Below, piece by piece: positions 2,087 to 64,000 of a DNA stretch of 64,000 nt. Under the pieces are notes generated by a model. The model did not search any database, had not been told where the DNA came from, and worked only from the letters and a program-made list of their open reading frames with translations. The DNA is from Eledone cirrhosa (lineage: Eukaryota): positions 413,726,001 to 413,790,000 of the forward strand of contig OZ024741.1 in assembly GCA_964016885.1 (NCBI GenBank), given 5' to 3'. Positions within the stretch are counted from its first letter, which is position 1; each line of letters opens with the position of its first letter. The position numbers were made by a program, and so were the translations under genes.

Positions 2087-2345
2087 TATATATATATATA
2101 TATAGGAACCAGTAAGACCCCGACAGCTGAGCTCAAGCCGTTTCGACGGCTAATTCTGGACTAAATGAAAATTTATCCTGGTATTTAAATAGCCGAACTT
2201 CGCACAAAACATCGTCTCCTCTAACAACAAAAAACTCAACCCCGATGGCAGAAATAACCTAAATAGCAGTGGAGAACCGACCAGGAGGTGTAACTGCCCG
2301 GATAGATCTATTTGCCCACTCGACAATAGATGCAGAGACCGTAAT

Positions 2346-10670: not shown

Positions 10671-10672
10671 AT

Positions 10673-11488
10673 ACCATATTTCTAATGAAAGGCACTGTCT
10701 ATGTTGTTTAACCCTTTCATTACCATATTTCTAATGTAAGACACTGTCTATGTTGTTTAACCCTTCCATTACCATATTTCTATTGTAAGACACTGTCTAT
10801 GTTGTTTAACCCTTTCATTACCATATTTCTAATGTAAGATACTGTCTATGTTGTTTAACCCTTCCATTACCATATTTCTATTGTAAGACACTGTCTATGT
10901 TGTTTAACCCTTTCATTACCATATTTCTAATGTAAGATACTGTCTATGTTGTTTAACCCTTCCATTACCATATTTCTAATGTAAGACACTGTCTATGTTG
11001 TTTAACCCTTTCATTACTATATTTCTAATGTAAGACACTGTCTATGTTGTTTAACCCTTTCATTACCATATTTCTAATGTAAGATACTGTCTATGTTGTT
11101 TAACCCTTTCATTACCATATTTCTAATGTAAGATACTGTCTATGTTGTTTAACCCTTCCATTACCATATTTCTATTGTAAGACACTGTCTATGTTGTTTA
11201 ACCCTTTCATTACCATATTTCTAATGTAAGACACTGTCTATGTTGTTTAACCCTTTCATTACTATATTTCTAATGTAAGACACTGTCTATGTTGTTTAAC
11301 CCTTTCATTACCATATTTCTAATGTAAGACACTGTCTATGTTGTTTAACCCTTTCATTACCATATTTCTAATGTAAGATACTGTCTATGTTGTTTAACCC
11401 TTCCATTACCATATTTCTAATGTAAGACGCTGTCTATGTTGTTTAACCCTTTCATTAACCATATTTCTAATATAAGACACTGTCTATG
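10673..11488. repeat. 49-bp minisatellite, ~17 copies
   Basis: Unit ACCATATTTCTAATGTAAGACACTGTCTATGTTGTTTAACCCTTTCATT, highly homogeneous. Confidence 0.98.
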
Positions 11489-11548: not shown

Positions 11549-11660
11549 GTGATTCAGACATTTATTTCTTCAAAAGATGAAATGTTTAAGGTTCTCTCTA
11601 TGATGACTATGGCATATATAGTTGAAGAGGAAGATAACCAGGCATTGATTGAGGAAACTG
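11549..11660 (+). CDS. Internal exon A of an armadillo-like repeat / TIR-domain protein gene
   Basis: Acceptor tttcttctttcag| and donor |gtgaac. Encodes VIQTFISSKDEMFKVLSMMTMAYIVEEEDNQALIEET-G. Ends in phase 1, matching the next exon. Confidence 0.8.
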
Positions 11661-16281: not shown

Positions 16282-16415
16282 GCAGTATACTGTGTATGCT
16301 CCAATGGCTTGATAAAGCCCTCGACTGCAATAAAAGACGCTACAAAGGGTTCACACCATATGAAATTGTACAAGGCTTGGAGAAGCTGGCAGTTACAGAT
16401 TCTAACAAATTGAAG
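16282..16415 (+). CDS. Internal exon B of the ARM/TIR protein gene
   Basis: Acceptor tttctctctccccag| and donor AAG|gtaatg. G+GC completes Gly. Encodes GSILCMLQWLDKALDCNKRRYKGFTPYEIVQGLEKLAVTDSNKLK. Confidence 0.85.
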
Positions 16416-17702: not shown

Positions 17703-17958
17703 ATCGTTGATGGTGGAATACTGTCAATGTTGAGTCGTATGTTACAGTGTGACGATGTCCGAGAACAGTGTTCAGCTGCAAGAATTCTGTGGACGTTAGT
17801 ATTTGATGAAAATGTCCGCGAACGATTATTAAATGATGAACAGGAGTTGGTGAATTTACTAGAATCTTTGAAAGATAACAAAGATAAACTCGTCAGTGCC
17901 AATGTGAAAGGGGTCCTCTGGTTATTAAACGGTGCAACTCAGGTGACAGAGGTGGACA
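17703..17958 (+). CDS. Internal exon C of the ARM/TIR protein gene (armadillo-like repeats)
   Basis: Acceptor tttttctatttctag| and donor |gtaagt. Encodes IVDGGILSMLSRMLQCDDVREQCSAARILWTLVFDENVRERLL...VSANVKGVLWLL, with ARM-like G-x-L-x2-L and AA-x2-LW-x-L patterns. Confidence 0.9.
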
Positions 17959-22061: not shown

Positions 22062-22156
22062 AAGAGACAGTTCGTGCCAGGGCCAAAACCCATGTGTTCA
22101 TCAGTTACTCTGTTGTAGATAAAGAAAGTGTATGGAGAGTGAGAGACAGGTTAAAG
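22062..22156 (+). CDS. Internal exon D of the ARM/TIR protein gene (start of the TIR domain)
   Basis: Acceptor ttttattatttccag| and donor AAG|gttggt. A+AA completes Lys. Encodes KETVRARAKTHVFISYSVVDKESVWRVRDRLK; HVFISYS matches TIR box 1 (beta-A) followed by helix A. Too short to appear in the ORF track. Confidence 0.85.
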
Positions 22157-22189
22157 GTTGGTATATTATTATTGTTATTATCATTAGTA

Positions 22190-22295
22190 ATTGGTAGAGC
22201 GTCGGACACCATGCGTCAAGGCTTAGAGTTACTGTACTTTATGTTCTGAGTTCAAATCCCACCAAGGTTAGCTTTGCCTTTCATCCTTACGGGGG
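22190..22295 (+). mobile_element. tRNA-derived SINE head fragment
   Basis: GGTAGAGCGTCGG...GTTCTGAGTTCAAATCCC B box, then TTTGCCTTTCATCCTT. Confidence 0.6.
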
Positions 22296-23496
22296 TGGTG
22301 TGGTTTACTAAATTGTTGTAATCTGTTGGTAGAGGAAGGTTTACTAATCAATATATCGATGATTCATCTTTGATCACTAAACACTCACGTCTATTAGCTT
22401 CATGTTAATGTCAAATGTCAGGCTAATATTTTGGGTGGAAGAGAGAAAATAGTAAAACGAACGCTAATGAAGAATTTGGTTAAAGGGAGGTAAATCTCTG
22501 CTGCCATTTCTTTATTTCTCTGTAAAATGGCAGAAAGAAATATTTCTTGTATTTTTTAAACTAAAGAAAGACCAGAAATCTTCTGGCATAGAAAAAGAAA
22601 TATTTTAACATTATTAATATATTCTTTATTAGCAATTTCATTGCCTCATTTTTAGTGAAAAACAATGCTGGTTATTTTCAAATATTTTGAAAATTATCTG
22701 GAATTTGGAGGGATTTAGTAATACAACTAACTTTCTCATTATTAACAGCTTTGTTTACTATATTTTTAATTAAAGACACTACCTTTAATTTTCAAATTAC
22801 TTTGAAAATAATCAAGATTTTCAAGCTGGTATTTGGAACATAGTGTACCAAGAATTGTTACATAAAATTAGGATGGAACCTGGGGGTGGAATGCTGGGCT
22901 TAGGGGTTTTGTTGTTGTATACTTCTAGGAGACACATCCAGGGCCTTTTCACTCCTGTTGGAGGAATCCTTCCTTGGTTGAGCTCCATTGCTTTCTGTTT
23001 GGTTTTAGTTATGTCAGGGTGTAGCCATACTCACTACACTTCCCTGTTTGTGAGTTGGTGAGGTTCTGCAGAGTTCATCCAGGTTATCAACAAACCACTC
23101 AACCATGAAGCAAGTTGTATTGGGTTATATGGTGCAGTGTAGCAGCCAGAAAGATGATCTCATATAGGAATGTTACTGGCTAATTTTCTATGGTAGAATG
23201 AATTTCCTAACATCAACCACATTGACAGTGTGTGGGGCTGGATGCTTTTTGCTGTGTCTTTTACACGTCCACTTTACAGTGTGGAGGGCTGGATGTTTTG
23301 TGGTACCAGCATAATATACATATATATATATGTGTGTGTGTTTACATGCACATATCATGATAATGATAAGCACATATATATATGTTTGTGTGCATATAAA
23401 TATACCATATATGTAATATACATACACATATCATACATATAAGCACTTCATACATATACATACGCACTTCATATATATATATACACATATAAATAT

Positions 23497-23667
23497 ATCA
23501 TCGACCTCATTGATTAGTGTCCATCATTCATGAGAAGGACGGATTGACCCTTGTTTAGCTCAGCCGGGGCAGATTTTGGCTTGGTTTCTACAGCTGGGTA
23601 CCCTTTAGTGTGTGAGGAGTGCTTCATGTTGTATCACCTACACAACCAAATTACAGTGGGGCCTGGA
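23497..23667 (-). mobile_element. Minus-strand SINE/RTE tail that leads into the satellite
   Basis: Reverse complement of 23576-23606 (AAAGGGTACCCAGCTGTAGAAACCAAGCCAA) matches SINE tail 20818-20848 (GAAGGGCATCCAGCTGTAGAAATCAAGCCAG). Confidence 0.7.
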
Positions 23668-26600
23668 CACCTTGTCATGTCACCGACATGACCACTTTAC
23701 AGTGTGGACTGAGGGCCTTTGTCATGTCACCGACATGACCACTTTACAGTGTGGACTGAGGGCCTTTGTCATGTCACCGACATGACCACTTTACAGTGTG
23801 GACTGACAACCTTTGTCATGTCACCAGCATGACCACTTTACAGTGTGGACTGAGGACCTTTGTCATGTCACCGACATGACCACTCTACAGTGTGGACTGA
23901 GGGTCTTTGTCATGTCACCGACACGACCACTTTACAGTGTGGACTGAGGAACTTTGTCATGTCACCTACATGACCACTTTACAGTGTGGACTGAGAACCT
24001 TTGTCATGTCACCAGCATGACCACTTTACAGTGTGGACTGAGGACCTTTGTCATGTCACCGACATGACCACTCTACAGTGTGGACTGAGGGTCTTTGTCA
24101 TGTCACCGACACGACCACTTTACAGTGTGGACTGAGGAAATTTGTCATGTCACCTACATGACCACTTTACAGTGTGGACTGAGGACCTTTGTCATGTCAC
24201 CGACACGACCACTTTACAGTGTGGACTGAGGACCTTTGTCATGTCACCGACATGACCACTTTACAGTGTGGACTGAGAACCTTTGTCATGTCACCAGCAT
24301 GACCACTTTACAGTGTGGACTGAGGACCTTTGTCATGTCACCGACACGACCACTTTACAGTGTGGACTGAGGACCTTTGTCATGTCACCGACATGACCAC
24401 TTTACAGTGTGGACTGAGGACCTTTGTCATGTCACCGACATGACCACTTTACAGTGTGGACTGAGGGCCTTTGTCATGTCCCTGACATGACCACTCTACA
24501 GTGTGGACTGAGGGTCTTTGTCATGTCACCGACACGACCACTTTACAGTGTGGACTGAGGACCTTTGTCATGTCACCAGCATGACCACTTTACAGTGTGG
24601 ACTGAGGACCTTTGTCATGTTACCGACATGACCACTCTACAGTGTGGACTGAGGGTCTTTGTCATGTCACCGACACGACCACTTTACAGTGTGGACTGAG
24701 GACCTTTGTCATGTCACCGACATGACCACTTTACAGTGTGGACTGAGGACCTTTGTCATGTCACCGACATGACCACTTTACAGTGTGGACTGAGGGCCTT
24801 TGTCATGTCACCAACATGACCACTTTGCAGTGTGGACTGAGGACCTTTGTCATGTCACCGACATGACCACTTTACAGTGTGGACTGAGAACCTTTGTCAT
24901 GTCACCAGCAAGACCACTTTACAGTGTGGACTGAGGACCTTTGTCATGTCACCGACACGACCACTTTGCAGTGTGGACTGAGGACCTTTGTCATGTCACC
25001 TACATGACCACTTTGCAGTGTGGACTGAGGACCTTTGTCATGTCACCTACATGACCACTTTACAGTGTGGACTGAGAACCTTTGTCATGTCACCAGCATG
25101 ACCACTTTACAGTGTGGACTGAGGACCTTTATCATGTCACTGACACGTCCACTTTACAGTGTGGACTGAGGACCTTTGTCATGTCACCAGCATGACCACT
25201 TTACAGTGTGGACTGAGGACCTTTGGTATGTCACGGACAGGACCACTTTACAGTGTGGACTGAGGACCTTTGTCATGTCACTGACACGACCACTTTGCAG
25301 TGTCGACTGAGGACCTTTGTCATGTCACCAGCATGACCACTTTACAGTGTGGACTGAGGACCTCTGTCATGTCACCGACAGGACCACTTTACAGTGTGGA
25401 CTGAGGACCTTTGTCATGTCACCGACATGACCACTTTACAGTGTGGACTGAGGACCTTTGTCATGTCACCTACATGACCACTTTACAGTGTGGACTGAGG
25501 GCCTTTGTCATGTCAACATGACCACATTACAGTGTGGACTGAGGACCTTTGTCATGTCACCAACTTGACCACTTTACAGTGTGGACTGAGGACCTTTGTC
25601 ATGTCACAGACACAACCACTTTACAGGGTTGACTGAGGACCTTTGTCATGTCACGGACATGACCACTTTACAGTGTGGACTGAGGACCTTTGTCATGTCA
25701 CCTACATGACCACTTTACAGTGTGGACTGAGGGCCTTTGTCATGTCACCTACACGACCACTTTGCAGTGTGGACTGAGGACCTTTGTCATTGCACCGACA
25801 TGACCACTTTACAGTGTGGACTGAGGACCTTTATCATGTCACCGACACGACCACTTTGCAGTGTGGACTGAGGACCTTTGTCATGTCACCGACACGACCA
25901 CTTTGCAGTGTGGACTGAGGACCTTTGTCATGTCACCGACATGACCACTTTACAGTGTGGACTGAGGGCCTTTGTCATGTCACCGACATGACCACTTTAC
26001 AGTGTGGACTGAGGACCTTTATCATGTCACCGACACGACCACTTTGCAGTGTGGACTGAGGACCTTTGTCATGTCATTGACACGACCACTTTACAGTGTG
26101 GACTGAGGACCTTTGTCATGTCACCGACAGGACCACTTTACAGTTGGACTGAGGACCTTTGTCATGTCACCGACATGACCACTTTACAGTGTGGACTGAG
26201 GACCTTTGTCATGTCACCTACACGACCACTTTACAGTGTGTACTGAGGACCTTTGTCATGTCACCGACATGACCACTTTACAGTGTGGACTGAGGACCTT
26301 TGTCATGTCACTGACACGACCACTTTGCAGTGTGGACTGAGGACCTTTGTCATGTCACCTACATGACCACTTTACAGTGTGGACTGAGGACCTTTGTCAT
26401 GTCACCTACATGACCTCTTTACAGTGTGGACTGAGGACCTTTGTCATGTCACCGACATGACCACTTTACAGTGTGGACTGAGGACCTTTGTCATGTCACT
26501 GACACGACCACTTTGCAGTGTGGACTGAGGACCTTTGTCATGTCACCAGCATGACCACTTTACAGTGTGGACTGAGGACCTTTGTCATGTCACCGACAGG

Positions 26601-29600
26601 ACCACTTTGCAGTGTGGACTGAGGACCTTTGTCATGTCACCAGCATGACCACTTAACAGTGTGGACTGAGGACCTTTGTCATGTCACTGACAAGACCACT
26701 TTACAGTGTGGACTGAGGACCTTTGTCATGTCACCTACATGACCACTTTACAGTTGGACTGAGGACCTTTGTCATGTCACCGACACGACCACTTTACAGT
26801 GTGGACTGAGCACCTTTGTCATGTCACCGACACGACCACGTTAAAGTGTGGACTGAGGACCTTTGTCGTGTCACCGACATGACCACTTTACAGTGTGGAC
26901 TGAGGACCTTTGTCATGTCACCGACATGACCACTTTACAGTGTGGACTGAGGACCTTTGTCATGTCACCGACATGACCACTTTACAGTGTGAACTGAGGA
27001 CCTTTGTCATGTCACCGACATGACCACTTTACAGTGTGGACTGAGGGGCTTTGTCATGTCACCGACATGACCACTTTACAGTGTGGACTGAGGGCCTTTG
27101 TCATGTCACCGACATGGCCACTTTACAGTGTGGACTGAGGACCTTTGTCATGTCACCGACATGACCACTTTACAGTGTGGACTGAGGACCTTTGTCATGT
27201 CACCAGCATGACCACTTTACAGTGTGGACTGAGGACCTTTGTCATGTCACCTACATGACCACTTTACAGTGTGGACTGAGGGCCTTTGTCATGTCACTGA
27301 CATGACCACTTTACAGTGTGGACTGAGGCCCTTTGCCATGTCACCTACATGACCACTTTATAGTGTGGACTGAGAACCTTTGTCATGTCATCTACACGAC
27401 CACTTTACAGTGTGGACTGAGGGCCTTTGTCATGTCACCAACTTGACCACTTTACAGTGTGGACTGAGGACCTTTGTCATGTCACCTACATGACCACTTT
27501 ATAGTGTGGACTGAGAACCTTTGTCATGTCACTGACATGACCACTTTGCAGTGTGGACTGAGGACCTTTGTCATGTCACCTACATGACCACTTTACAGTG
27601 TGGACTGAGGACCTTTGTCATGTCACCGACATGACCACTTTACAGTGTGGACTGAGGACCTTTGAAATGTCACCGACATGACCACTTTACAGTGTGGACT
27701 GAGGACCTTTGTTATGTCACCGACATGACCACTTTACAGTGTGGTCTGAGGACCTTTGTCATGTCCCTGACATGACCACTTTACAGTGTGGACTGAGGAC
27801 CTTTGTCATGTCACCGACATGACCACTTTACAGTGTGGACTGAGGACCTTTGTCATGTCACCGACATGACCACTTTACAGTGTGGTCTGAGGACCTTTGT
27901 CATGTCCCTGACATGACCACTTTACAGTGTGGACTGAGGACCTTTGTCATGTCACTGACATGACCACTTTACAGTTGGACTGAGGGCCTTTGTCATGTCA
28001 CCGACACGACCACTTTACAGTGTGGACTGAGGACCTTTGTCATGTCACCGACACGACCACGTTAAAGTGTGGACTGAGGACCTTTGTCATGTCACCGACA
28101 TGACCACTTTACAGTGTGGACTGAGGACCTTTGTCATGTCACCTACATCACCACTTTACAGTGTGGACTGAGGACCTTTATCACGTCCCCAACATGACCA
28201 CTTTACAGTGTGGACTGAGGAACTTTGTCATGTCACCTACATGACCACTTTACAGTGTGGTCTGAGGACCTTTGTCATGTCACCTACACGACCACTTTAC
28301 AGTGTGGACTGAGGACCATTGTCATGTCACCGACACGACCACTTTACAGTGTGGACTGAGGACCTTTGTCATGTCACCGACATGACAACTTTACAGTGTG
28401 GACTGAGGACCTTTATCATGTCCCCGACATGACCACTTTACAGTGTGGACTGAGGACCTTTGTCATGTCACCAACTTGACCACTTTACAGTGTAGACTGA
28501 GGACCTTTGTCATGTCAGCGACACGACCACTTTAAAGTGTGGACTGAGGACCTTTGTCATGTCACCTACACGACCACTTTACAGTGTGGACTGAGGACCT
28601 TTGTCATGTCACCGACATGACCACTTTACAGTGTGGACTGAGGACCTTTGTCATGTCACCGACACGACCACTTTACAGTGTGGACTGAGGACCTTTGTCA
28701 TGTCACCTACACGACCACTTTACAGTGTGGACTGAGGACCTTTGTCATGTCACCGACACAACCACTTTACAGTGTCGACTGAGGACCTTTGTCATGTCAT
28801 CTACACGACCACTTTACAGTGTGGACTAAGGACCTTTGTCATGTCACTAACATGACCACTTTACAGTGTGGACTGAGGACCTTTGTCATGTCACCTACAT
28901 GACCACTTTACAGTGTGGACTGAGGACCTTTGTCATGTCACCAAATTGACCACTTTACAGTGTGGACTGAGGACTTTTGTCATGTCACCGACACGACCAC
29001 TTTACAGTGTGGACTGAGGGTCTTTGTCATGTCACCATGACCACTTTACAGTGTGGACTGAGGACCTTTGTCATGTCACCGACACGTCCACGTTACAGTG
29101 TGGACTGAGGGTCTTTGTCATGTCACCATGACCACTTTACAGTGTGGACTGAGGACTTTTGTCATGTCACCGACACGACCACTTTACAGTGTGGACTGAG
29201 GGTCTTTGTCATGTCACGATGACCACTTTACAGTGTGGACTGAGGACCTTTGTCATGTCAGCGACACGACCACTTTACAGTGTGGACTGAGGACCTTTGT
29301 CATGTCACCGACACGTCCACTTTACAGTGTGGACTGACGACCTTTGTCATGTCACCTACACGACCACTTTACAATGTGGACTGAGGACCTTTGTCATGTC
29401 ACCGACACGACCACTTTACAGTGTGGACTGAGGACCTTTGTCATGTCACCGACACGACCACTTTACAGTGTGGACTGACGACCTTTGTCATGTCACCTAC
29501 ACGACCACTTTACAATGTGGACTGAGGACCTTTGTCATGTCACCGACGTGACCACTTTACAGTGTGGACTGAGGACCTTGTCATGACACTGACACGTCCA

Positions 29601-32600
29601 CTTTCCAGTGTGGACTGATGACCTTTGTCATGTCACCATGACCACTTTACAGTGTGGACTGAGGACCTATATCACGTCCCCAACATGACCACTTTACGGT
29701 GTGGGCTGAGGACCTTTGTCATGTCACTGACACGACCACTTTACAGTGTGGACTGAGGACCTTTGTCATGTCACTGACATAACCACTTTACAGTTTGGAC
29801 TGAGGACCTTTGTCATGTCACCTACATGACCACTTTACAGTGTGGACTGAGGACCTTTGTCATGTCACCGACATGACCACTTTACAGTTTGGACTGAGGA
29901 CCTTTGTCATGTCACAGACATGACCACTTTACAGTGTGGACTGAGGACCTTTATCATGTCCCCGACATGACCACTTTACAGTGTGGGCTGAGGACCTTTG
30001 TCATGTCACCAGCATGACCACTTTACAGTGTGGACTGAGGACCTTTGTCATGTCCCCGACATGACCACTTTACAGTGTGGACTGAGGACCTTTGTCATGT
30101 CACTGACACAACCACTTTACAGTGTGGACTGAGGACCTTTGTCATGACACCGACATGACCACTTTACAGTGTGGACTGAGGACCTTTGTCGTGTCACCGA
30201 CATGACCACTTTACAGTGTGGACTGAGGACCTTTGTCATGTCACCGACACGACAACTTTACAGTGTGGACTGAGGACCTTTGTCATGTCACATACACGAC
30301 CACTTTACAGTGTGGACTGAGGACCTTTGTCGTGTCACCGACACAACCACTTTACAGTGTCGACTGAGGACCTTTGTCATGTCATCTACACGACCACTTT
30401 ACAGTGTGGACTGAGGACCTTTGTCATGTCACCTACATGACCACTTTACAGTGTGGACTGAGGACCTTTGTCATGTCACCTGCATGACCACTTTACAGTG
30501 TGGACTGAGGACCTTTATCACGTCCCCAACATGACCACTTTACAGTGTGGACTGAGGACCTTTGTCATGTCACTAACATGACCACTTTACAGTGTGGACT
30601 GAGGACCTTTGTCATGTCACCTACATGACCACTTTACAGTGTGGACTGAGGACCTTTGTCATGTCACCAAATTGACCACTTTACAGTGTGGACTGAGGAC
30701 TTTTGTCATGTCACCGACACGACCACTTTACAGTGTGGACTGAGGGTCTTTGTCATGTCACCATGACCACTTTACAGTGTGGACTGAGGACCTTTGTCAT
30801 GTCACCGACACGTCCACGTTACAGTGTGGACTGAGGGTCTTTGTCATGTCACCATGACCACTTTACAGTGTGGACTGAGGACCTTTGTCATGTCACTGAC
30901 ATAACCACTTTACAGTTTGGACTGAGGACCTTTGTCATGTCACCGACATGACCACTTTACAGTGTGGACTGAGGACCTTTGTCATGTCACCGACATGACC
31001 ACTTTACAGTTTGGACTGAGGACCTTTGTCATGTCACAGACATGACCACTTTACAGTGTGGACTGAGGACCTTTATCATGTCCCCGACATGACCACTTTA
31101 CAGTGTGGGCTGAGGACCTTTGTCATGTCACCAGCATGACCACTTTACAGTGTGGACTGAGGACCTTTGTCATGTCCCCGACATGACCACTTTACAGTGT
31201 GGACTGAGGACCTTTGTCATGTCACTGACACAACCACTTTACAGTGTGGACTGAGGACCTTTGTCATGACACCTACATGACCACTTTACAGTATGGACTG
31301 ATGACCTTTGTCATGTCACGGACATGATCACTTTACAGAGTGGACTGAGGACCTTTGTCATGTCACCTACATGACCACTTTACAGTGTGGACTGAGGACC
31401 TTTGTCATGTCACCTACATGACCACTTTACAGTGGGGCCTGAGGACCTTTGTCATGTCACCGACACGACCACTTTACAGTGTGGACTGAGGACCTTTGTC
31501 ATGTGACCTACATGACCACTTTACAGTGTGGACTGACGACCTTTGTCATGTCACCGACATGACCACTTTACAGTGTGGACTGAGGACCTTTGTCATGTCA
31601 CCGACATGACCACTTTACAGTGTGGACCGAGGACCTTTGTCATGTCACCGACATGACCACTTTACAGTGTGGACTGAGGGCCTTTGTCATGTCACCAACA
31701 TGACCACTTTGCAGTGTGGACTGAGGACCTTTGTCATGTCACCGACATGACCACTTTACAGTGTGGACTGAGAACCTTTGTCATGTCAGCAGCAAGACCA
31801 CTTTACAGTGTGGACTGAGGACCTTTGTCATGTCACCGACACGACCACTTTGCAGTGTGGACTGAGGACCTTTGTCATGTCACCGACACGACCACTTTGC
31901 AGTGTGGACTGAGGACCTTTGTCATGTCACCTACATGACCACTTTACAGTGTGGACTGAGAACCTTTGTCATGTCACCAGCATGACCACTTTACAGTGTG
32001 AACTGAGGACCTTTATCATGTCACTGACACGTCCACTTTACAGTGTGGACTGAGGACCTTTGTCATGTCACCAGCATGACCACTTTACAGTGTGGACTGA
32101 GGACCTTTGTCATGTCACCGACACGACCACTTTACAGTGTGGACTGAGGACCTTTGTCATGTCACCTACACGACCACTTTACAGTGTGGACTGAGGACCT
32201 TTGTCATGTCACCGACACAACCACTTTACAGTGTCGACTGAGGACCTTTGTCATGTCATCTACACGACCACTTTACAGTGTGGACTAAGGACCTTTGTCA
32301 TGTCACTAACATGACCACTTTACAGTGTGGACTGAGGACCTTTGTCATGTCACCTACATGACCACTTTACAGTGTGGACTGAGGACCTTTGTCATGTCAC
32401 CAAATTGACCACTTTACAGTGTGGACTGAGGACTTTTGTCATGTCACCGACACGACCACTTTACAGTGTGGACTGAGGGTCTTTGTCATGTCACCATGAC
32501 CACTTTACAGTGTGGACTGAGGACCTTTGTCATGTCACCGACACGTCCACGTTACAGTGTGGACTGAGGGTCTTTGTCATGTCACCATGACCACTTTACA

Positions 32601-50600: not shown

Positions 50601-53600
50601 ACATGACCACTTTACAGTGTGGACTGAGGACCTTTATCACGTCCCCAACATGACCACTTTACCGTGTGGACTGAGGACCTTTGTCATGTCACTAACATGA
50701 CCACTTTACAGTGTGGACTGAGGACCTTTGTCATGTCACCTACATGACCACTTTACAGTGTGGACTGAGGACCTTTGTCATGTCACCGACATGACCACTT
50801 TACAGTGTGGACTGAGGACTTTTGTCATGTCACCGACACGACCACTTTACAGTGTGGACTGAGGGTCTTTGTCATGTCACCGACACGTCCACGTTACAGT
50901 GTGGACTGACGACCTTTGTCATGTCACCTACACGACCACTTTACAATGTGGACTGAGGACCTTTGTCATATCACCGACGTGACCACTTTACAGTGTGGAC
51001 TGAGGACCTTGTCATGACACTGACACGTCCACTTTCCAGTGTGGACTGATGACCTTTGTCATGTCACCAACTTGACCACTTTACAGTGTGGACTGAGGAC
51101 CTATATAACGTCCCCAACATGACCACTTCACGGTGTGGGCTGAGGACCTTTGTCATGTCACTGACACGACCACTTTACAGTGTGGACTGAGGACCTTTGT
51201 CATGTCACTGACATAACCACTTTACAGTTTGGACTGTGGACCTTTGTCATGTCACCGACATGACCACTTTACAGTGTGGACTGAGGACCTTTATCATGTC
51301 CCCGACATGACCACTTTACAGTGTGGGCTGAGGACCTTTGTCATGTCACCAGCATGACCACTTTACAGTGTGGACTGAGGACCTTTGTCATGTCCCCGAC
51401 ATGACCACTTTACAGTGTGGACTGAGGACCTTTGTCATGTCACTGACACAACCACTTTACAGTGTGGACTGAGGACCTTTGTCATGACACCTACATGACC
51501 ACTTTACAGTATGGACTGATGACCTTTGTCATGTCACGGACATGACCACTTTACAGAGTGGACTGAGGACCTTTGTCATGTCACCTACATGACCACTTTA
51601 CAGTGTGGACTGAGGACCTTTGTCATGTCACCTACATGACCACTTTACAGTGGGGCCTGAGGACCTTTGTCATGTCACCGACACGACCACTTTACAGTGT
51701 GGACTGAGGACCTTTGTCATGTGACCTACATGACCACTTTACAGTGTGGACTGACGACCTTTGTCATGTCACCTACATGACCACTTTACAGTTGGACTGA
51801 GGACCTTTGTCATGTCACCGACATGACCACTTTACAGTGTGGACTGAGGACCTTTGTCATGTCACCTACATGACCACTTTACAGTGTGAACTGAGGACCT
51901 TTATCATGTCACCTACATGACCACTTTACAGTGTGGACTGAGGACTTTTGTCATGTCACGGACATGACCACTTTACGGTGTGGACTGAGGACCTTTGTCA
52001 TGTCACCTACATGACCACTTTACAGTGTGGACTGAAATCCTTTGTCATGACCCCGACACGACCAATTTACAGTGTGGACTGAGGACCTTTGTCATGTCAC
52101 CGACACGACCACTTTACAGTGTCGACTGAGGACCTTTGTCATGTCATCTACATGACCACTTTACAGTGTGGACTGAGGACCTTTGTCATGTCACCTACAT
52201 GACCACTTTACAGTGTGGACTGAGGACCTTTGTCATGTCACAGACACGACCACTTTACAGTGTGGACTGAGGACCTTTGTCATGTCACCGACACGACCAC
52301 TTTACAGTGTGGACTGAGGACCTTTGTCATGTCACCTACATGACCACTTTACATTGTGGACTGAGGACCTTTGTCATGTCACCTACATGACCACTTTACA
52401 GTGTGGACTGAGAACCTTTGTCATGTCACCTGCATGACCACTTTACAGTGTGGACTGAGGACCTTTGTCATGTCACCTACATGACCACTTTCCATAGTGG
52501 ACTGAGGACCTTTGTCATGTCACTAACAGGACCAATTTACAGTGTGGACTGAGGACCTTTGTCATGTCACCTACATGACAACTTTACAGTGTGGACTGAG
52601 GACCTTTATCATGTCCCCGACATGACCACATTACAGTGTGGACTGAGGACCTTTGTCATGTCACCAGCATGACCACTTTACAGTGTGGACTGAGGACATT
52701 TGTCATGTCACCGACACGACCACTTTACAGTGTGGACTGAGGACCTTTGTCATGTCACCAGCATGACCACTTTACAGTGTGGACTGAGGACCTTTGTCAT
52801 GTCACTGACACGACCACTTTACAGTGTGGACTGAGGACATTTGTCATGTCACCGACACGACCACTTTACAGTGTGGACTGAGGACCTTTATCATGTCACC
52901 GACACGTCCACTTTACAGTGTGGACTGAGGACCTTTGTCATGTGATCTACATGACCACTTTACAGTGTGGACTGAGGACCTTTGTCATGTCACCTACATG
53001 ACCACTTTACAGTGGGGCCTGAGGACCTTTGTCATGTCACAAACACGACCACTTTACAGTGTGGACTGAGGACCTTTGTCATGTCTCCTACATGACCACT
53101 TTACAGTGGGGCCTGAGGACCTTTGTCATGTCACGGACATGACCACTTTACAGTGTGGTCTGAGAACTTTTGTCATGTCACTGACATGACCACTTTACAG
53201 TGTGGACTGAGGACCTTTGTCATGACCCCGACATGACCACTTTACAGTGTGGACTGAGGACCTTTGTCATGTCACTGACACGACCACTTTACAGTGTGGA
53301 CTGAGGACCTTTATCACGTCCCCAACATGACCACTTTACAGTGTGGGCTGAGCACCTTTGTCATGTCACCAGTATTACCACTTTACAGTGTGGACTGATG
53401 ACCTTTGTCATGTCACCGACACAACCACTTTACAGTGTGTACTGAGGACCTTTGTCATGTCACCTACATCACCACTTTACAGTGTGGACTGAGGACCTTT
53501 ATCACGTCCCCAACATGACCACTTTACAGTGTGGGCTGAGGACCTTTGTCATGTCACCAGCATGACCACTTTACAGTGTGGACTGAGGACCTTTGTCATG

Positions 53601-56600
53601 TCACTGACACGACCACTTTACAGTGTGGACTGAGGACCTTTGTCATGTCACCGACACGACTACTTTACAGTGTGGACTGAGGACCTTTGTCATGTCACCT
53701 ACATGACCACTTTACAGTGTGGACTGAGGACCTTTGTCATGTCACCTGCATGATCACTTTACAGTGTGGACTGAGGACCTTTGAAATGTCACCGACATGA
53801 CCACTTTACAGTGTGGACTGAGGACCTTTGTCATGTCACCGACATGACCACTTTACAGTGTGGACTGAGGACCTTTGTCATGTCCCTGATATGACCACTT
53901 TACAGTGTGGACTGAGGACCTTTGTCATGTCACCGACATGACTACTTTACAGTGTGGACTGAGGACCTTTGTCATGTCACTGACATGACCACTTTACAGT
54001 TGGACTGAGGGCCTTTGTCATGTCACCGACACGACCACTTTACAGTGTGGACTGAGGACCTTTGTCATGTCACCGACACGACCACGTTAAAGTGTGGACT
54101 GAGGACCTTTGTCATGTCACCGACATGACCACTTTACAGTGTGGACTGAGGACCTTTGTCATGTCACCTACATCACCACTTTACAGTGTGGACTGAGGAC
54201 CTTTATCACGTCCCCAACATGACCACGTTACAGTGTGGACTGACGACCTTTGTCATGTCACCGACACGACCACTTTACAGTGTGGACTGAGGGTCTTTGT
54301 CATGTCACCGACACGACCACTTTACAATGTGGACTGAGGACCTTTGTCATGTCACCATGACCACTTTACAGTGTGGACTGAGGACCTTTGTCATGTCACC
54401 GACGTGACCACTTTACAGTGTGGACTGAGGACCTTGTCATGACACTGACACGTCCACTTTCCAGTGTGGACTGATGACCTTTGTCATGTCACTATGACCA
54501 CTTTACAGTGTGGACTGAGGACCTATATCACGTCCCCAACATGACCACTTCACGGTGTGGGCTGAGGACCTTTGTCATGTCACTGACACGACCACTTTAC
54601 AGTGTGGACTGAGGACCTTTGTCATGTCACTGACATAACCACTTTACAGTTTGGACTGAGGACCTTTGTCATGTCACCGACATGACCACTTTACAGTGTG
54701 GACTGAGGACCTTTGTCATGTCACCGACATGACCACTTTACAGTTTGGACTGAGGACCTTTGTCATGTCACGGACATGACCACTTTACAGTGTGGACTGA
54801 GGACCTTTATCATGTCCCCGACATGACCACTTTACAGTGTGGGCTGAGGACCTTTGTCATGTCACCAGCATGACCACTTTACAGTGTGGACTGAGGACCT
54901 TTGTCATGTCCCCGACATGACCACTTTACAGTGTGGACTGAGGACCTTTGTCATGTCACTGACACAACCACTTTACAGTGTGGACTAAGGACCTTTGTCA
55001 TGACACCTACATGACCACTTTACAGTATGGACTGATGACCTTTGTCATGTCGCGGACATGACCACTTTACAGAGTGGACTGAGGACCTTTGTCATGTCAC
55101 CTACATGACAACTTTACAGTGTGGACTGAGGACCTTTATCATGTCCCCGACATGACCACATTACAGTGTGGACTGAGGACCTTTGTCATGTCACCAGCAT
55201 GACCACTTTACAGTGTGGACTGAGGACATTTGTCATGTCACCGACACGACCACTTTGCAGTGTGGACTGAGGACCTTTGTCATGTCACCAGCATGACCAC
55301 TTTACAGTGTGGACTGAGGACATTTGTCATGTCACCGACACGACCACGTTAAAGTGTGGACTGAGGACCTTTGTCATGTCACCTACATGACAACTTTACA
55401 GTGTGGACTGAGGACCTTTATCATGTCCCCGACATGACCACATTACAGTGTGGACTGAGGACCTTTGTCATGTCACCAGCATGACCACTTTACAGTGTGG
55501 ACTGAGGACATTTGTCATGTCACCGACACGACCACTTTACAGTGTGGACTGAGGACCTTTGTCATGTCACCAGCATGACCACTTTACAGTGTGGACTGAG
55601 GACATTTGTCATGTCACCGACACGACCACTTTACAGTTTGGACTGAGGACCTTTATCATGTCCCCGACATGACCACTTTACAGTGTGGACTGAGGACATT
55701 TGTCATGTCACCGACACGTCCACTTTACAGTGTGGACTGAGGACCTTTGTCATGTGATCTACATGACCACTTTACAGTGTGGACTGAGGACCTTTGTCAT
55801 GTCACCTACATGACCACTTTACAGTGGGGCCTGAGGACCTTTGTCATGTCACAAACACGACCACTTTACAGTGTGGACTGAGGACCTTTGTCATGTCTCC
55901 TACATGACCACTTTACAGTGGGGCCTGAGGACCTTTGTCATGTCACGGACATGACCACTTTACAGTGTGGTCTGAGAACTTTTGTCATGTCACTGACATG
56001 ACCACTTTACAGTGTGGACTGAGGACCTTTGTCATGTCACCGACATGACCACTTTACAGTGTGGACTGAGGACCTTTATCACGTCCCCAACATGACCACT
56101 TTACAGTGTGGGCTGAGCACCTTTGTCATGTCACCAGTATTACCACTTTACAGTGTGGACTGATGACCTTTGTCATGTCACCGACACAACCACTTTACAG
56201 TGTGTACTGAGGACCTTTGTCATGTCACCTACATCACCACTTTACAGTGTGGACTGAGGACCTTTATCACGTCCCCAACATGACCACTTTACAGTGTGGG
56301 CTGAGGACCTTTGTCATGTCACCAGCATGACCACTTTACAGTGTGGACTGAGGACCTTTGTCATGTCACTGACACGACCACTTTACAGTGTGGACTGAGG
56401 ACCTTTGTCATGTCACCGACACGACTACTTTACAGTGTGGACTGAGGACCTTTGTCATGTCACCTACATGACCACTTTACAGTGTGGACTGAGGACCTTT
56501 GTCATGTCACCTGCATGATCACTTTACAGTGTGGACTGAGGACCTTTGAAATGTCACCGACATGACCACTTTACAGTGTAGACTGAGGACCTTTGTCATG

Positions 56601-59600
56601 TCACCGACATGACCACTTTACAGTGTGGACTGAGGACCTTTGTCATGTCCCTGATATGACCACTTTACAGTGTGGACTGAGGACCTTTGTCATGTCACCG
56701 ACATGACTACTTTACAGTGTGGACTGAGGACCTTTGTCATGTCACTGACATGACCACTTTACAGTTGGACTGAGGGCCTTTGTCATGTCACCGACACGAC
56801 CACTTTACAGTGTGGACTGAGGACCTTTGTCATGTCACCGACACGACCACGTTAAAGTGTGGACTGAGGACCTTTGTCATGTCACCGACATGACCACTTT
56901 ACAGTGTGGACTGAGGACCTTTGTCATGTCACCTACATCACCACTTTACAGTGTGGACTGAGGATCTTTATCACGTCCCCAACATGACCACTTTACAGTG
57001 TGGACTGAGGACCTTTGTCATGTCACCTACATGACCACTTTACAGTGTGGACTGAGGACCTTTGTCATGTCACCTACACGACCACTTTACAGTGTGGACT
57101 GAGGACCATTGTCATGTCACCGACACGACCACTTTACAGTGTGGACTGAGGACCTTTGTCATGTCACCGACATGACAACTTTACAGTGTGGACTGAGGAC
57201 CTTTATCATGTCCCCGACATGACCACTTTACAGTGTGGACTGAGGACCTTTGTCATGTCACCAACTTGACCACTTTACAGTGTAGACTGAGGACCTTTGT
57301 CGTGTCACCGACATGACCACTTTACAGTGTGAACTGAGGACCTTTGTCATGTCACCGACATGACCACTTTACAGTGTGGACTGAGGACCTTTGTCATGTC
57401 ACCGACACGACCACTTTACAGTGTGGACTGAGGACCTTTGTCATGTCACCTACACGACCACTTTACAGTGTGGACTGAGGACCTTTGTCATGTCACCGAC
57501 ACGACCACTTTACAGTGTCGACTGAGGACCTTTGTCATGTCCCCGACATGACCACTTTACAGTGTGGACTGAGGACCTTTGTCATGTCACCTACATGACC
57601 ACTTTACAGTGTGGACTGAGGACCTTTGTCATGTCACAGACACGACCACTTTGCAGTGTAGACTGAGGACCTTTGTCATGTCACCGACACGACCACTTTA
57701 CAGTGTGGACTGAGGACGTTTGTCATGTCGCCTACATGACCACTTTACATTGTGGACTGAGGACCTTTGTCATGTCACCTACATGACCACTTTACAGTGT
57801 GGACTGAGGACCTTTGTCATGTCACCGACACGACCACTTTACAGTGTGGACTGAGGACCTTTGTCATGTAACCTACATGACCACTTTACAGTGTGGACTG
57901 AGGACCTTTATCACGTCCCCAACATGACCACTTTACAGTGTGGACTGAGGACCTTTGTCATGTCACTGACATGACCACTTTACAGTGTGGACTGAGGACC
58001 TTTGTCATGTCACCTACATGACCACTTTACAGTGTGGACTGAGGACCTTTGTCATGTCACCGACATGACCACTTTACAGTGTGGACTGAGGACTTTTGTC
58101 ATGTCACCGACACGACCACTTTACAGTGTGGACTGAGGACCTTTGTCATGTCACCTACATGACCACTTTACAGTGTGGACTGAGGACCTTTGTCATGTCA
58201 CCTACATGACCACTTTACAGTGTGGACTGAGGACCTTTGTCATGTCACCTGCATGACCACTTTACAGTGTGGACTGAGGGTCTTTGTCATGTCACCGACA
58301 CGTCCACGTTACAGTGTGGACTGAGGACCTTTGTCATGTCACCGGCATGACCACTTTACAGTGTGGACTGAGGGTCTTTGTCATGTCACCGACACGTCCA
58401 CGTTACAGTGTGGACTGACGACCTTTGTCATGTCACCGACACGACCACTTTACAGTGTGGACTGAGGGTCTTTGTCATGTCACCGACACGACCACTTTAC
58501 AATGTGGACTGAGGACCTTTGTCATGTCACCATGACCACTTTACAGTGTGGACTGAGGACCTTTGTCATGTCACCGACGTGACCACTTTACAGTGTGGAC
58601 TGAGGACCTTGTCATGACACTGACACGTCCACTTTCCAGTGTGGACTGATGACCTTTGTCATGTCACCATGACCACTTTACAGTGTGGACTGAGGACCTA
58701 TATCACGTCCCCAACATGACCACTTCACGGTGTGGGCTGAGGACCTTTGTCATGTCACTGACACGACCACTTTACAGTGTGGACTGAGGACCTTTGTCAT
58801 GTCACTGACATAACCACTTTACAGTTTGGACTGAGGACCTTTGTCATGTCACCGACATGACCACTTTACAGTGTGGACTGAGGACCTTTGTCATGTCACC
58901 GACATGACCACTTTACAGTTTGGACTGAGGACCTTTGTCATGTCACAGACATGACCACTTTACAGTGTGGACTGAGGACCTTTATCATGTCCCCGACATG
59001 ACCACTTTACAGTGTGGGCTGAGGACCTTTGTCATGTCACCAGCATGACCACTTTACAGTGTGGACTGAGGACCTTTGTCATGTCCCCGACATGACCACT
59101 TTACAGTGTGGACTGAGGACCTTTGTCATGTCACTGACACAACCACTTTACAGTGTGGACTAAGGACCTTTGTCATGACACCTACATGACCACTTTACAG
59201 TATGGACTGATGACCTTTGTCATGTCGCGGACATGACCACTTTACAGAGTGGACTGAGGACCTTTGTCATGTGACCTACATGACCACTTTACAGTGTGGA
59301 CTGAGGACCTTTGTCATGTCACCTACATGACCACTTTACAGTGGGGCCTGAGGACCTTTGTCATGTCACCGACACGACCACTTTACAGTGTGGACTGAGG
59401 ACCTTTGTCATGTGACCTACATGACCACTTTACAGTGTGGACTGACGACCTTTGTCATGTCACCTACATGACCACTTTACAGTTGGACTGAGGACCTTTG
59501 TCATGTCACCTACATGACCACTTTACAGTGTGGACTGAGGACCTTTGTCATGTCACCTACATGACCACTTTACAGTGTGAACTGAGGACCTTTATCATGT

Positions 59601-62600
59601 CACCTACATGACCACTTTACAGTGTGGACTGAGGACTTTTGTCATGTCACCGACATGACCACTTTACAGTGTGGACTGAGGACCTTTGTCATGTCACCTA
59701 CATGACCACTTTACAGTGTGGACTGAAGTCCTTTGTCATGACCCCGACACGACCACTTTCAAGTGTCGACTGAGGACCTTTGTCATGTCATCTACATGAC
59801 CACTTTACAGTGTGGACTGAGGACCTTTGTCATGTCACCTACATGACCACTTTACAGTGTGGACTGAGGACCTTTGTCATGTCACAGACACGACCACTTT
59901 ACAGTGTGGACTGAGGACCTTTGTCATGTCACCGACACAACCACTTTACAGTGTGGACTGAGGACGTTTGTCATGTCACCTACATGACCACTTTACATTG
60001 TGGACTGAGGACCTTTGTCATGTCACCTACATGACCACTTTACAGTGTGGACTGAGAACCTTTGTCATGTCACCTGCATGACCACTTTACAGTGTGGACT
60101 GAGGACCTTTGTCATGTCACCTACATGACCACTTTCCATAGTGGACTGAGGACCTTTGTCATGTCACTAACAGGACCAATTTACAGTGTGGACTGAGGAC
60201 CTTTGTCATGTCACCTACATGACAACTTTACAGTGTGGACTGAGGACCTTTATCATGTCCCCGACATGACCACTTTACAGTGTGGACTGAGGACCTTTGT
60301 CATGTCACCAGCATGACCACTTTACAGTGTGGACTGAGGACATTTGTCATGTCACCGACACGACCACTTTACAGTGTGGACTGAGGACCTTTGTCATACC
60401 ACCAGCATGACCACTTTACAGTGTGGACTGAGGACCTTTATCACGTCCCCAACATGACCACTTTACAGTGTGGGCTGAGCACCTTTGTCATGTCACCAGT
60501 ATTACCACTTTACAGTGTGGACTGATGACCTTTGTCATGTCACCGACACAACCACTTTACAGTGTGTACTGAGGACCTTTGTCATGTCACCTACATCACC
60601 ACTTTACAGTGTGGACTGAGGACCTTTATCACGTCCCCAACATGACCACTTTACAGTGTGGGCTGAGGACCTTTGTCATGTCACCAGCATGACCACTTTA
60701 CAGTGTGGACTGAGGACCTTTGTCATGTCACTGACACGACCACTTTACAGTGTGGACTGAGGACCTTTGTCATGTCACCGACACGACTACTTCACAGTGT
60801 GGACTGAGGACCTTTGTCATGTCACCTACATGACCACTTTACAGTGTGGACTGAGGACCTTTGTCATGTCACCTGCATGATCACTTTACAGTGTGGACTG
60901 AGGACCTTTGAAATGTCACCGACATGACCACTTTACAGTGTGGACTGAGGACCTTTGTCATGTCACCGACATGACCACTTTACAGTGTGGACTGAGGACC
61001 TTTGTCATGTCCCTGATATGACCACTTTACAGTGTGGACTGAGGACCTTTGTCATGTCACCGACACGACTACTTTACAGTGTGGACTGAGGACCTTTGTC
61101 ATGTCACTGACATGACCACTTTAAAGTGTGGACTGAGGACCTTTGTCATGTCACCGACACGACCACTTTACAGTGTCGACTGAGGACCTTTGTCATGTCA
61201 TCTACATGACCACTTTACAGTGTGGACTGAGGACCTTTGTCATGTCACCTACATGACCACTTTACAGTGTGGACTGAGGACCTTTGTCATGTCACAGACA
61301 CGACCACTTTGCAGTGTAGACTGAGGACCTTTGTCATGTCACCGACACGACCACTTCACAGTGTGGACTGAGGACGTTTGTCATGTCGCCTACATGACCA
61401 CTTTACATTGTGGACTGAGGACCTTTGTCATGTCACCTACATGACAACTTTACAGTGTGGACTGAGGACCTTTGTCATGTCACCGACACGACCACTTTAC
61501 AGTGTGGACTGAGGACCTTTGTCATGTAACCTACATGACCACTTTACAGTGTGGACTGAGGACCTTTAACACGTCCCCAACATGAGCACTTTACAGTGTG
61601 GACTGAGGACCTTTGTCATGTCACTGACATGACCACTTTACAGTGTGGACTGAGGACCTTTGTCATGTCACCTACATGACCACTTTACAGTGTGGACTGA
61701 GGACCTTTGTCATGTCACCGACATGACCACTTTACAGTGTGGACTGAGGACTTTTGTCATGTCACCGACACGACCACTTTACAGTGTGGACTGAGGACCT
61801 TTGTCATGTCACCTACATGACCACTTTACAGTGTGGACTGAGGACCTTTGTCATGTCACCGACACGACCACTTTACAGTGTGGACTGAGGACCTTTGTCA
61901 TGTCACCTACATGACCACTTTACAGTGTGGACTGAGGACCTTTGTCATGTCACCTGCATGACCACTTTACAGTGTGGACTGAGGGTCTTTGTCATGTCAC
62001 CGACACGTCCACGTTACAGTGTGGACTGAGGACCTTTGTCATGTCACCTGCATGATCACTTTACAGTGTGGACTGAGGACCTTTGTCATGTCACCGGCAT
62101 GACCACTTTACAGTGTGGACTGAGGGTCTTTGTCATGTCACCGACACGTCCACGTTACAGTGTGGACTGACGACCTTTGTCATGTCACCGACACGACCAC
62201 TTTACAGTGTGGACTGAGGGTCTTTGTCATGTCACCGACACGACCACTTTACAATGTGGACTGAGGACCTTTGTCATGTCACCATGACCACTTTACAGTG
62301 TGGACTGAGGACCTTTGTCATGTCACCGACGTGACCACTTTACAGTGTGGACTGAGGACCTTGTCATGACACTGACACGTCCACTTTCCAGTGTGGACTG
62401 ATGACCTTTGTCATGTCACCATGACCACTTTACAGTGTGGACTGAGGACCTATATCACGTCCCCAACATGACCACTTCACGGTGTGGGCTGAGGACCTTT
62501 GTCATGTCACTGACACGACCACTTTACAGTGTGAACTGAGGACCTTTGTCATGTCACTGACATAACCACTTTACAGTTTGGACTGAGGACCTTTGTCATG

Positions 62601-64000
62601 TCACCGACATGACCACTTTACAGTGTGGACTGAGGACCTTTGTCATGTCACCGACATGACCACTTTACAGTTTGGACTGAGGATCTTTGTCATGTCACTG
62701 ACATGACCACTTTACAGTGTGGACTGAGGACCTTTATCATGTCCCCGACATGACCACTTTACAGTGTGGGCTGAGGACCTTTGTCATGTCACCAGCATGA
62801 CCACTTTACAGTGTGGACTGAGGACCTTTGTCATGTCCCCGACATGACCACTTTACAGTGTGGACTGAGGACCTTTGTCATGTCACTGACACAACCACTT
62901 TACAGTGTGGACTAAGGACCTTTGTCATGACACCTACATGACCACTTTACAGTATGGACTGATGACCTTTGTCATGTCGCGGACATGACCACTTTACAGA
63001 GTGGACTGAGGACCTTTGTCATGTGACCTACATGACCACTTTACAGTGTGGACTGAGGACCTTTGTCATGTCACCTACATGACCACTTTACAGTGGGGCC
63101 TGAGGACCTTTGTCATGTCACCGACACGACCACTTTACAGTGTGGACTGAGGACCTTTGTCATGTGACCTACATGACCACTTTACAGTGTGGACTGACGA
63201 CCTTTGTCATGTCACCTACATGACCACTTTACAGTTGGACTGAGGACCTTTGTCATGTCACCGACATGACCACTTTACAGTGTGGACTGAGGACCTTTGT
63301 CATGTCACCTACATGACCACTTTACAGTGTGAACTGAGGACCTTTATCATGTCACCTACATGACCACTTTACAGTGGGGCCTGAGGACCTTTGTCATGTC
63401 ACCGACACGACCACTTTACAGTGTGGACTGAGGACCTTTGTCATGTCACCTACATGACAACTTTACAGTGTGGACTGAGGACCTTTATCATGTCCCCGAC
63501 ATGACCACATTACAGTGTGGACTGAGGACCTTTGTCATGTCACCAGCATGACCACTTTACAGTGTGGACTGAGGACATTTGTCATGTCACCGACACGACC
63601 ACTTTACAGTGTGGACTGAGGACCTTTCTCATGTCACCAGCATGACCACTTTACAGTGTGGACTGAGGACCTTTGTCATGTCACTGACACGACCACTTTA
63701 CAGTGTGGACTGAGGACATTTGTCATGTCACCGACACGACCACTTTACAGTGTGGACTGAGGACCTTTATCATGTCCCCGACATGACCACTTTACAGTGT
63801 GGACTGAGGACATTTGTCATGTCACCGACACGTCCACTTTACAGTGTGGACTGAGGACCTTTGTCATGTGATCTACATGACCACTTTACAGTGTGGACTG
63901 AGGACCTTTGTCATGTCACCTACATGACCACTTTACAGTGGGGCCTGAGGACCTTTGTCATGTCACAAACACGACCACTTTACAGTGTGGACTGAGGACC
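23668..64000. repeat. Large 47-bp satellite array (~850 units), continuing past the window end
   Basis: Consensus GACCTTTGTCATGTCACCGACATGACCACTTTACAGTGTGGACTGAG. Period 47 (AGTGTGGACT at 23701 and 23748). Occasional 44-46-bp variants. Single orientation with no visible interruption. Confidence 0.99.

What the first reader, a model, noticed from the sequence alone, without database searches (positions are those of the whole stretch)
22157..64000. TIR domain interrupted by a >41 kb intron filled with satellite DNA
Exon D ends in a phase-0 donor just after TIR helix A. I found no continuation exon (expected to resemble xxGxxVWxD) between 22157 and 23667, and the rest of the window is pure satellite. 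Either the gene transcribes through more than 40 kb of tandem repeat (intron gigantism, as in Drosophila Y fertility genes) or the array has disrupted the gene. Array length could act as a polymorphic dial on expression of an immune gene (inference).
Basis: partly seen in the sequence, partly recalled or inferred. Interest (0 to 1): 0.7.

Follow-up and report, generated by a model that had tools for sequence, protein, structure and literature searches.

The report
Satellite-swollen introns in octopod TIR gene
An intact, spliced octopus-group signalling gene (ARM-TIR-SAM) has a 141,600-base intron that is 98% one 47-base repeat, and two more giant introns holding other repeats; this is likely a tolerated side effect of lying near a repeat-clogged chromosome end rather than a special control device.

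Summary
Observation confirmed; the gene is not disrupted. The array (47-bp unit, about 2,970 copies, 139.4 kb, no N) ends 99 kb beyond the window. The predicted next TIR exon lies 690 bp later. Intron 9 is 141,603 bp, GT-AG, phase 0. The gene has 14 coding exons over 550 kb and an open 666-aa frame, 94% identical to Octopus orthologues. A 2,650-nt contig of run X4 joins the two flanking exons exactly, with no mismatch.

The intron is not special. Introns 1 and 2 are longer (146 and 167 kb) and hold unrelated arrays. In blind 5-kb samples, 8 of 17 from this chromosome end and 16 of 40 from other ends were pure satellite, against 2 of 39 interior samples. The unit derives from the internal repeat of a SINE-like element still fused to the array.

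The scan noted the same pattern before in at least seven other genes of this genome (unchecked notes). The 'expression dial' and the immune role are untested. Transcription through the array is inferred, not shown.

The parts
11549..11660 (+). Coding exon 6 of 14 (ARM region). Exons 1-5 lie upstream of the window at C2:413,355,249-413,693,802
   Evidence: tblastn; AG/GT boundaries
16282..16415 (+). Coding exon 7 (ARM region)
17703..17958 (+). Coding exon 8 (ARM repeat region)
22062..22156 (+).
   Evidence: X4 2,650-nt contig positions 1391-1486 lie on 22062-22157 with 0 differences
22157..64000 (+). Intron 9, in-window part. The whole intron is C2:413,748,157-413,889,759, 141,603 bp, GT-AG, 98.5% tandem array. 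It is followed outside the window by exon 10 (L018:9760-9901, the TIR continuation, phase-0 acceptor) and exons 11-14 (L019-L020; rest of TIR, linker, SAM-like domain, stop at C2:413,905,683)
   Evidence: X4 contig positions 1484-1627 lie on L018:9758-9901 with 0 differences
23505..23650 (-). 3' part of a SINE-like dispersed element fused to the array's left end; rare variant shared with a sister array at C2:409.70 Mb
23651..64000 (.). 47-bp satellite array, in-window part (860 copies). The whole array ends at L018:9070 (139,420 bp, about 2,970 copies, mean 5.2% divergence from consensus, 688 distinct monomers among 2,794 full-length ones), where it joins a 60-bp x about 3.5 repeat of a different dispersed element over a shared 5-nt stretch

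Best explanation
The window holds exons 6-9 of an intact, spliced 14-exon ARM-TIR-SAM gene whose ninth intron is 141.6 kb and 98.5% one 47-bp satellite, which likely grew in place from the internal repeat of a SINE-like element and is likely tolerated because it is transcribed and spliced out. Shown: gene structure, open frame, spliced exon 9|10 junction, homology of the unit to the SINE internal repeat with the element's 3' part still attached, and strong enrichment of such arrays near several chromosome ends. Inferred steps: (1) a SINE copy, carrying a few internal units or already a short array, came to lie in intron 9 in antisense orientation; (2) slippage and kilobase-scale unequal exchange or duplication enlarged it to about 2,970 units; (3) selection did not remove it because the sense strand has no AATAAA and no strong splice site; (4) RNA polymerase II reads through and the intron is removed in one piece. 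It is a positional by-product, not a gene-specific device.
For: 13 of 13 introns GT-AG, no internal stop, 624 of 664 residues identical to O. bimaculoides and to O. sinensis orthologues, TIR 121 of 123. The X4 contig covers only exon sequence at both exons; exon 9 ends at record position 1485 and exon 10 starts at 1486. Unit vs SINE alignment score 53; 300 shuffles gave max 25, mean 16.9. Of 139 SINE-core copies scored in 1.56 Mb, 108 have 1-2 internal units and a tail runs up to 13; an independent array of the same origin fills a 5-kb sample at C3:374 Mb (L149). Exact duplicated blocks up to 3.1 kb inside the array. Sense strand of the array: 0 AATAAA, 0 YAGGTRAG, 0 strong pyrimidine-tract acceptors. 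Introns 1 and 2 are 145.8 and 167.4 kb with 39-kb (63-bp unit) and 126-kb (65-bp unit) arrays. Pure-array 5-kb samples: 8 of 17 at C2:400-416 Mb and 16 of 40 at other ends vs 2 of 39 interior (Fisher p=5e-4 and 3e-4), with many different units.
Against: X4's library type is not on record and its sample (S2) differs from that of the best DNA holders (S1), so the transcript may come from an individual or allele with a shorter array. No read or contig is shown bridging either array junction. End enrichment is uneven: C4 both ends 0 of 10, C5 end 0 of 5. Orthologous intron sizes could not be obtained, so 'grew recently in place' rests on the low monomer divergence alone. Lack of AATAAA follows from the unit sequence on both strands, so it does not prove selection, and the intron 1 array has 560 sense AATAAA.
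Confidence: 0.82

Rival explanations
1. Array length is a functional, polymorphic dial: longer alleles delay or lower expression of this TIR gene and selection uses that.
For: Kilobase-scale exact duplications suggest recent length change; the gene carries about 304 kb of large arrays in three introns. Intron lengths vary among chickens in stuttering genes (PMC12954441 abstract).
Against: No polymorphism or expression data. Equivalent arrays occupy about half of the samples from this chromosome end, and earlier unchecked notes describe them in housekeeping genes, so nothing singles this gene out.
Confidence: 0.07
2. The array length is partly an assembly artefact (over-expanded or mis-joined repeat); the true intron is large but shorter.
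For: Exact 2.5-3.1-kb duplicates at short offsets; no bridging read at the junctions; the right junction joins two unrelated repeats over 5 shared bases.
Against: No N gap; exons on both sides are colinear, same strand and in phase; 57.5% of the array's 200-mers are unique and variant frequencies drift along it, which copying of a short block cannot give.
Confidence: 0.08
3. The long-array allele is a dead or hypomorphic allele; the spliced transcript comes from another allele or individual without the expansion.
For: X4 is from a different sample than the best DNA holders.
Against: All 14 exons and splice sites in the assembled haplotype are intact, and exons 9 and 10 match the transcript contig with 0 differences; three separate arrays have built up in the gene without coding decay.
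Confidence: 0.03

Closest known systems
Intron gigantism of Drosophila Y-loop genes kl-3 and kl-5 (PMC6508621, PMC11207136; abstracts and outlines read)
   Same: Intact gene whose span is almost all intron (2,001 coding nt in 550 kb) with satellite-filled introns.
   Different: 0.14-0.17 Mb rather than megabase introns; 47-65-bp complex units rather than simple satellites; no Y linkage, germ-line restriction or dedicated RNA-binding factors shown here.
Avian intron 'sequence stuttering' on dot chromosomes (PMC12954441; abstract and first parts of sections 7 and 9 read)
   Same: Each intron holds its own locally expanded tens-of-bases motif, exons are untouched, and the effect depends on chromosomal position.
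   Different: Units here come from dispersed elements (the 47-bp unit has a sister array 4 Mb away; the 65-bp unit occurs in two introns and on C25); the region is AT-rich and full of interspersed repeats; no exon copying was seen at this intron; variation among individuals is untested.
SINE-derived satellites (sSat) of squamates (PMC10702118; abstract and Discussion read)
   Same: Tandem array of a SINE segment with a longer terminal unit matching the SINE up to its end; preference for subtelomeric regions, stronger for long loci.
   Different: About 2,970 units here against up to 1,000 there; the unit is a pre-existing internal repeat of the element; it lies inside an intron of an expressed mollusc gene.
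Molluscan ARM-TIR proteins (PMC9334734, PMC4346834; passages); orthologue LOC106868605 of O. bimaculoides and LOC115218870 of O. sinensis
   Same: ARM-type region plus TIR_2 domain; 94% identity to the orthologues; 442 representatives at E up to 1e-30.
   Different: Domain order is ARM-TIR-SAM-like, not the ARM-SAM-SAM-TIR of SARM1 (recalled); no Death domain as in ecTIR-DC family 6; function not established.

Membership tests
Satellite-filled giant intron (intron gigantism) | Intron of hundreds of kb or more between colinear, in-phase exons of an intact gene | tested here: met
   141,603 bp, GT-AG, phase 0, open 666-aa frame; at the low end of the 'hundreds of kb to Mb' range in the PMC11207136 abstract
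Satellite-filled giant intron (intron gigantism) | Intron mostly tandem repeat | tested here: met
   98.5%
Satellite-filled giant intron (intron gigantism) | Flanking exons are spliced together in RNA | tested here: met
   X4 contig positions 1485|1486; run type not on record, exon-only cover implies RNA
Satellite-filled giant intron (intron gigantism) | Nascent transcription through the satellite | not testable with these tools
   Only contigs were available; satellite-matching contigs cannot be assigned to this locus
Drosophila Y-loop programme | Megabase introns of simple satellites | tested here: not met
   0.14 Mb, 47-bp unit
Drosophila Y-loop programme | Cell-type-specific expression needing dedicated RNA-binding proteins | not testable with these tools
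   No tissue or perturbation data
SINE-derived satellite | Unit homologous to a segment of a dispersed SINE | tested here: met
   Score 53 vs shuffled max 25; element core has 168 hits in 1.56 Mb
SINE-derived satellite | Terminal unit continues into the SINE up to its end | tested here: met
   Left flank 23505-23650 is the element's 3' part in reverse; no 5' head at the right end
SINE-derived satellite | Parent element is a true SINE (tRNA-derived head) | tested here: inconclusive
   A full-length copy gives a tRNA match of 18.6 bits, E=0.3, below the gathering score of 29; named family not assigned
Avian-type sequence stuttering | Locally expanded motif confined to one intron | tested here: inconclusive
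   35 of 37 exact 77-nt matches lie in this intron, 2 in a sister array (listed matches are a lower bound)
Avian-type sequence stuttering | Intron length varies among individuals | not testable with these tools
   One assembly only
ARM-TIR protein | TIR domain | tested here: met
   PF13676 79.4 bits vs cutoff 28 for the orthologue P0001; 34.7 bits for exon 10 alone
ARM-TIR protein | Armadillo-type region | tested here: met
   PF25598 E=2.7e-6, below its cutoff; Vac8 structures E=9e-8
SARM1 | SAM domains placed before a C-terminal TIR (order recalled) | tested here: not met
   TIR at 412-530, weak SAM at 595-630 (E 0.01-0.06); no SARM1 chain among PDB hits

The most novel reading that the evidence does not exclude
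Distal chromosome arms of this octopod form a compartment where ordinary conserved genes are transcribed through hundreds of kb of transposon-seeded satellite. This gene reads through about 300 kb of three unrelated arrays, one with 560 sense-strand AATAAA signals. That would need a general somatic read-through mechanism and would make rapidly changing array length a heritable timer on TIR-gene output.
Probability: 0.12. Interest if true: 0.7.

Novelty: new member of a known kind. Interest (0 to 1): 0.3.

Why it matters
As a single locus it is ordinary for this genome: one of many satellite-swollen introns near chromosome ends. It is a clean worked case, with an intact frame, a spliced junction, and a traceable parent element and sister array. 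It shows that a conserved gene can carry about 300 kb of satellite without coding decay. If array length varies between animals, the locus allows a direct test of whether giant satellite introns affect expression outside fly spermatocytes. Four paper searches on satellites, tandem repeats or long introns listed no cephalopod paper on this pattern by title or abstract start; that library lacks most subscription journals.

Tried and rejected
Gene disruption: rejected. Continuation exon before or inside the array: none. N-gap join: none. Exons on the two sides belonging to different paralogues: rejected; single orthologue proteins map colinearly, and the only other locus found (C12) is 23-56% identical in parts (that search used a stricter first look, so weak paralogues may be missing). 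Retrocopy as the source of the spliced contig: no intronless copy among the 16 matches. Recursive-splice motif in the array: 0 YAGGTRAG; 15 GTRAG in 139 kb. Orthologous intron size: not obtainable; no related genome is held, and run X5 gave one 388-nt contig around exon 10 only. No RNA holder was listed as such. RAD-seq run X6 did not cover exon 10. No read-level bridge of the junctions was listed. The Octopus X2 alternative first exon was not found by exact 5-residue match in the three forward frames of 644 kb. ecTIR-DC family number: not assignable; the defining paper (Gerdol 2017) was seen only as a reference. The exon 8 hit to an RXLR WY-domain model (E=0.08) is treated as noise. No structure prediction or complex job was run. 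No supplements were read.
Full report
1. Observation. The window is G000:C2:413,726,001-413,790,000, about 2.5 Mb from the end of a 416.3-Mb contig in a 3.0-Gb genome. Exon D is 22062-22156 with a phase-0 GT donor at 22157. TRF finds one 47-bp array from 23651 to the window end (860.4 copies). Positions below are window-equivalent (C2 position minus 413,726,000). In 200 kb fetched downstream the array continues to 163,070: 139,420 bp, about 2,970 copies. There is no N in the 644 kb examined and no long foreign insertion.

2. The gene. Exon 8 finds two proteins among 67 candidates: O. bimaculoides LOC106868605 and its Argonauta hians counterpart; the cluster includes O. sinensis and O. vulgaris. 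The animal is therefore an octopod. tblastn maps the orthologues colinearly on the + strand. The model has 14 coding exons over 550,435 bp, 2,001 nt, 666 aa, no internal stop, 13 of 13 introns GT-AG. Identity is 624 of 664 to O. bimaculoides and to O. sinensis, 550 of 649 to Argonauta; TIR 121 of 123. The first attempt had three exon ends off by 1-2 bases and gave a broken frame; one search corrected them to the adjacent AG/GT sites. The missing TIR exon is at 163,760-163,901, 690 bp after the array. Intron 9 is 141,603 bp. Domains of the orthologue: ARM-like (234-384), TIR_2 (412-530, 79 bits) and a weak C-terminal SAM. The family is widespread (442 representatives at E up to 1e-30). A glutamate (model residue 482) aligns with a helix glutamate of the Cat1 TIR (E=0.005); that this is the catalytic position of NAD-cleaving TIRs is recalled, and activity is untested. 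PMC9334734 (passages) lists Armadillo-fold TIR proteins as of unknown function.

3. Splicing. Eight runs were listed, none on record as RNA; four were laid. In X4 (88 million letters, sample S2) one 2,650-nt contig of depth 10.3 lies on 22062-22157 as record 1391-1486 and on L018:9758-9901 as record 1484-1627, with 0 differences. The 1-2-base overhangs are letters shared by exon and intron ends. Exon 9 thus ends at 1485 and exon 10 begins at 1486. The contig is long enough for the whole coding sequence plus about 180 and 470 nt of UTR, but only these two exons were laid. Limits: S2 is not the sample of the best DNA holders, and no listed contig bridges either array junction.

4. The array. 2,794 full-length monomers, 688 distinct, mean 5.2% from consensus, with variant frequencies drifting along the array. 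Exact duplicated blocks reach 3.1 kb; 57.5% of 200-mers are unique. The reverse complement of the unit aligns with the internal repeat of a dispersed SINE-like element (score 53; 300 shuffles max 25), and the element's 3' part is fused to the array's left end. The element's head is tRNA-like but below Rfam's threshold (E=0.3). Among 139 scored copies, 8 have no internal unit, 108 have 1-2, 19 have 3-5, and 4 have 8-13. A sister array of 8,456 bp at C2:409,704,770-409,713,225 has the same unit and the same rare element variant: the best of 65 flank hits after the self-match (84 bits, next 57), and a diagnostic 10-mer seen twice against 51 of the common form. The two share exact stretches of 141 nt but none of 188 nt, so they likely have a common source and then grew separately; the direction of copying is not determined. 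The right end joins a 60-bp repeat of another dispersed element over five shared bases. The sense strand has 0 AATAAA and 0 YAGGTRAG.

5. Background. Introns 1 and 2 of the same gene are longer (145,790 and 167,363 bp) and hold a 39-kb 63-bp array and a 126-kb 65-bp array. I sampled round-number positions chosen without looking at the sequence. In 10-kb samples, 7 of 17 at C2:400-416 Mb were over 90% array, against 1 of 20 along C2 and 0 of 20 on other contigs. In 5-kb samples: 8 of 17 at this end, 16 of 40 within 10 Mb of eight other ends, 2 of 39 interior (p=5e-4 and 3e-4). One C2 sample at 10 Mb was left out of the interior set, and the 20 'other contig' samples (0 of 20) were not classed. 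Three of the eight other ends gave 0 of 5. Unchecked earlier notes describe satellite-filled introns in AK7, a REXO5-like gene, VPS15, SRA1, LHPP, unc79 and APLF in this genome; I did not re-check those loci.

6. Mechanism. Best reading (0.82): passive, position-driven satellite growth from a SINE internal repeat inside an intron that is still spliced. Shown: structure, splicing, homology, background. Inferred: order of events, growth mechanism, read-through, neutrality. At recalled polymerase II rates of 2-4 kb per minute, intron 9 would add about 35-70 minutes and the gene would take hours; rates in cephalopods are not known to me. Rivals: regulatory dial (0.07), inflated assembly (0.08), dead long allele (0.03).

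7. Known systems. It works like intron gigantism (PMC6508621, PMC11207136; abstracts and outlines) but fails the megabase and simple-satellite features of the Y-loop genes. It resembles avian intron stuttering in its positional dependence (PMC12954441; abstract and first parts of two sections). It matches the anatomy of SINE-derived satellites (PMC10702118; abstract and Discussion). PMC9476566 (passages) reports relatively higher methylation of satellites in O. bimaculoides; this array has 18 CpG per kb. PMC4758252 and PMC6836662 were read as passages and did not name this element or this protein family. No supplements were read.

8. Verdict. Real, intact and expressed gene with a giant satellite intron; a new member of a known kind, and common in this genome. 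Interest 0.3.

Noticed in passing
C2:413,376,318-413,415,397 (intron 1, upstream of the window): 39-kb array of a 63-bp unit with 560 AATAAA on the gene's sense strand; exon 1 transcripts would have to pass all of them, or the gene may use a later first exon as Octopus isoforms X2 and X3 do.
   Followed up: partly
C2:413,542,362-413,668,147 (intron 2) and L019:4947-6782 (intron 11): The same 65-bp repeat forms a 126-kb array in intron 2 and a 1.8-kb array in intron 11 (91% identical), and a 1.3-kb array on C25 (L128).
   Followed up: partly
L078:4770 to L079:3225 (C2:409.70-409.71 Mb): Sister 8.5-kb array with two monomer types; the type seen once in intron 9, as its first monomer, occurs 92 times here.
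   Followed up: partly
window 10672-11488; also three places upstream in the gene and L092 (C2:412.0 Mb): A 49-bp repeat recurs as 0.8-5.2-kb arrays in introns 1, 4 and 5 and fills a whole 10-kb sample 1.7 Mb away.
   Followed up: no
L068:4365-5024 and L067:4753-4935 (C12, minus strand): Distant ARM-TIR paralogue whose ARM region is one long open stretch of about 220 codons, unlike the split exons here.
   Followed up: partly
window 18368-19585 (+) and 2193-2735 (+): A 405-aa open stretch that looks like a LINE reverse transcriptase in intron 8, and a 180-aa stretch resembling a Penelope GIY-YIG endonuclease in intron 5; names recalled by eye, not searched.
   Followed up: no
C3 both ends, C5 start, C1 start, C2 start vs C4 both ends and C5 end: Some chromosome ends are 40-100% giant satellite while others show none (0 of 15 samples); this may reflect chromosome fusions or incomplete ends.
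   Followed up: no
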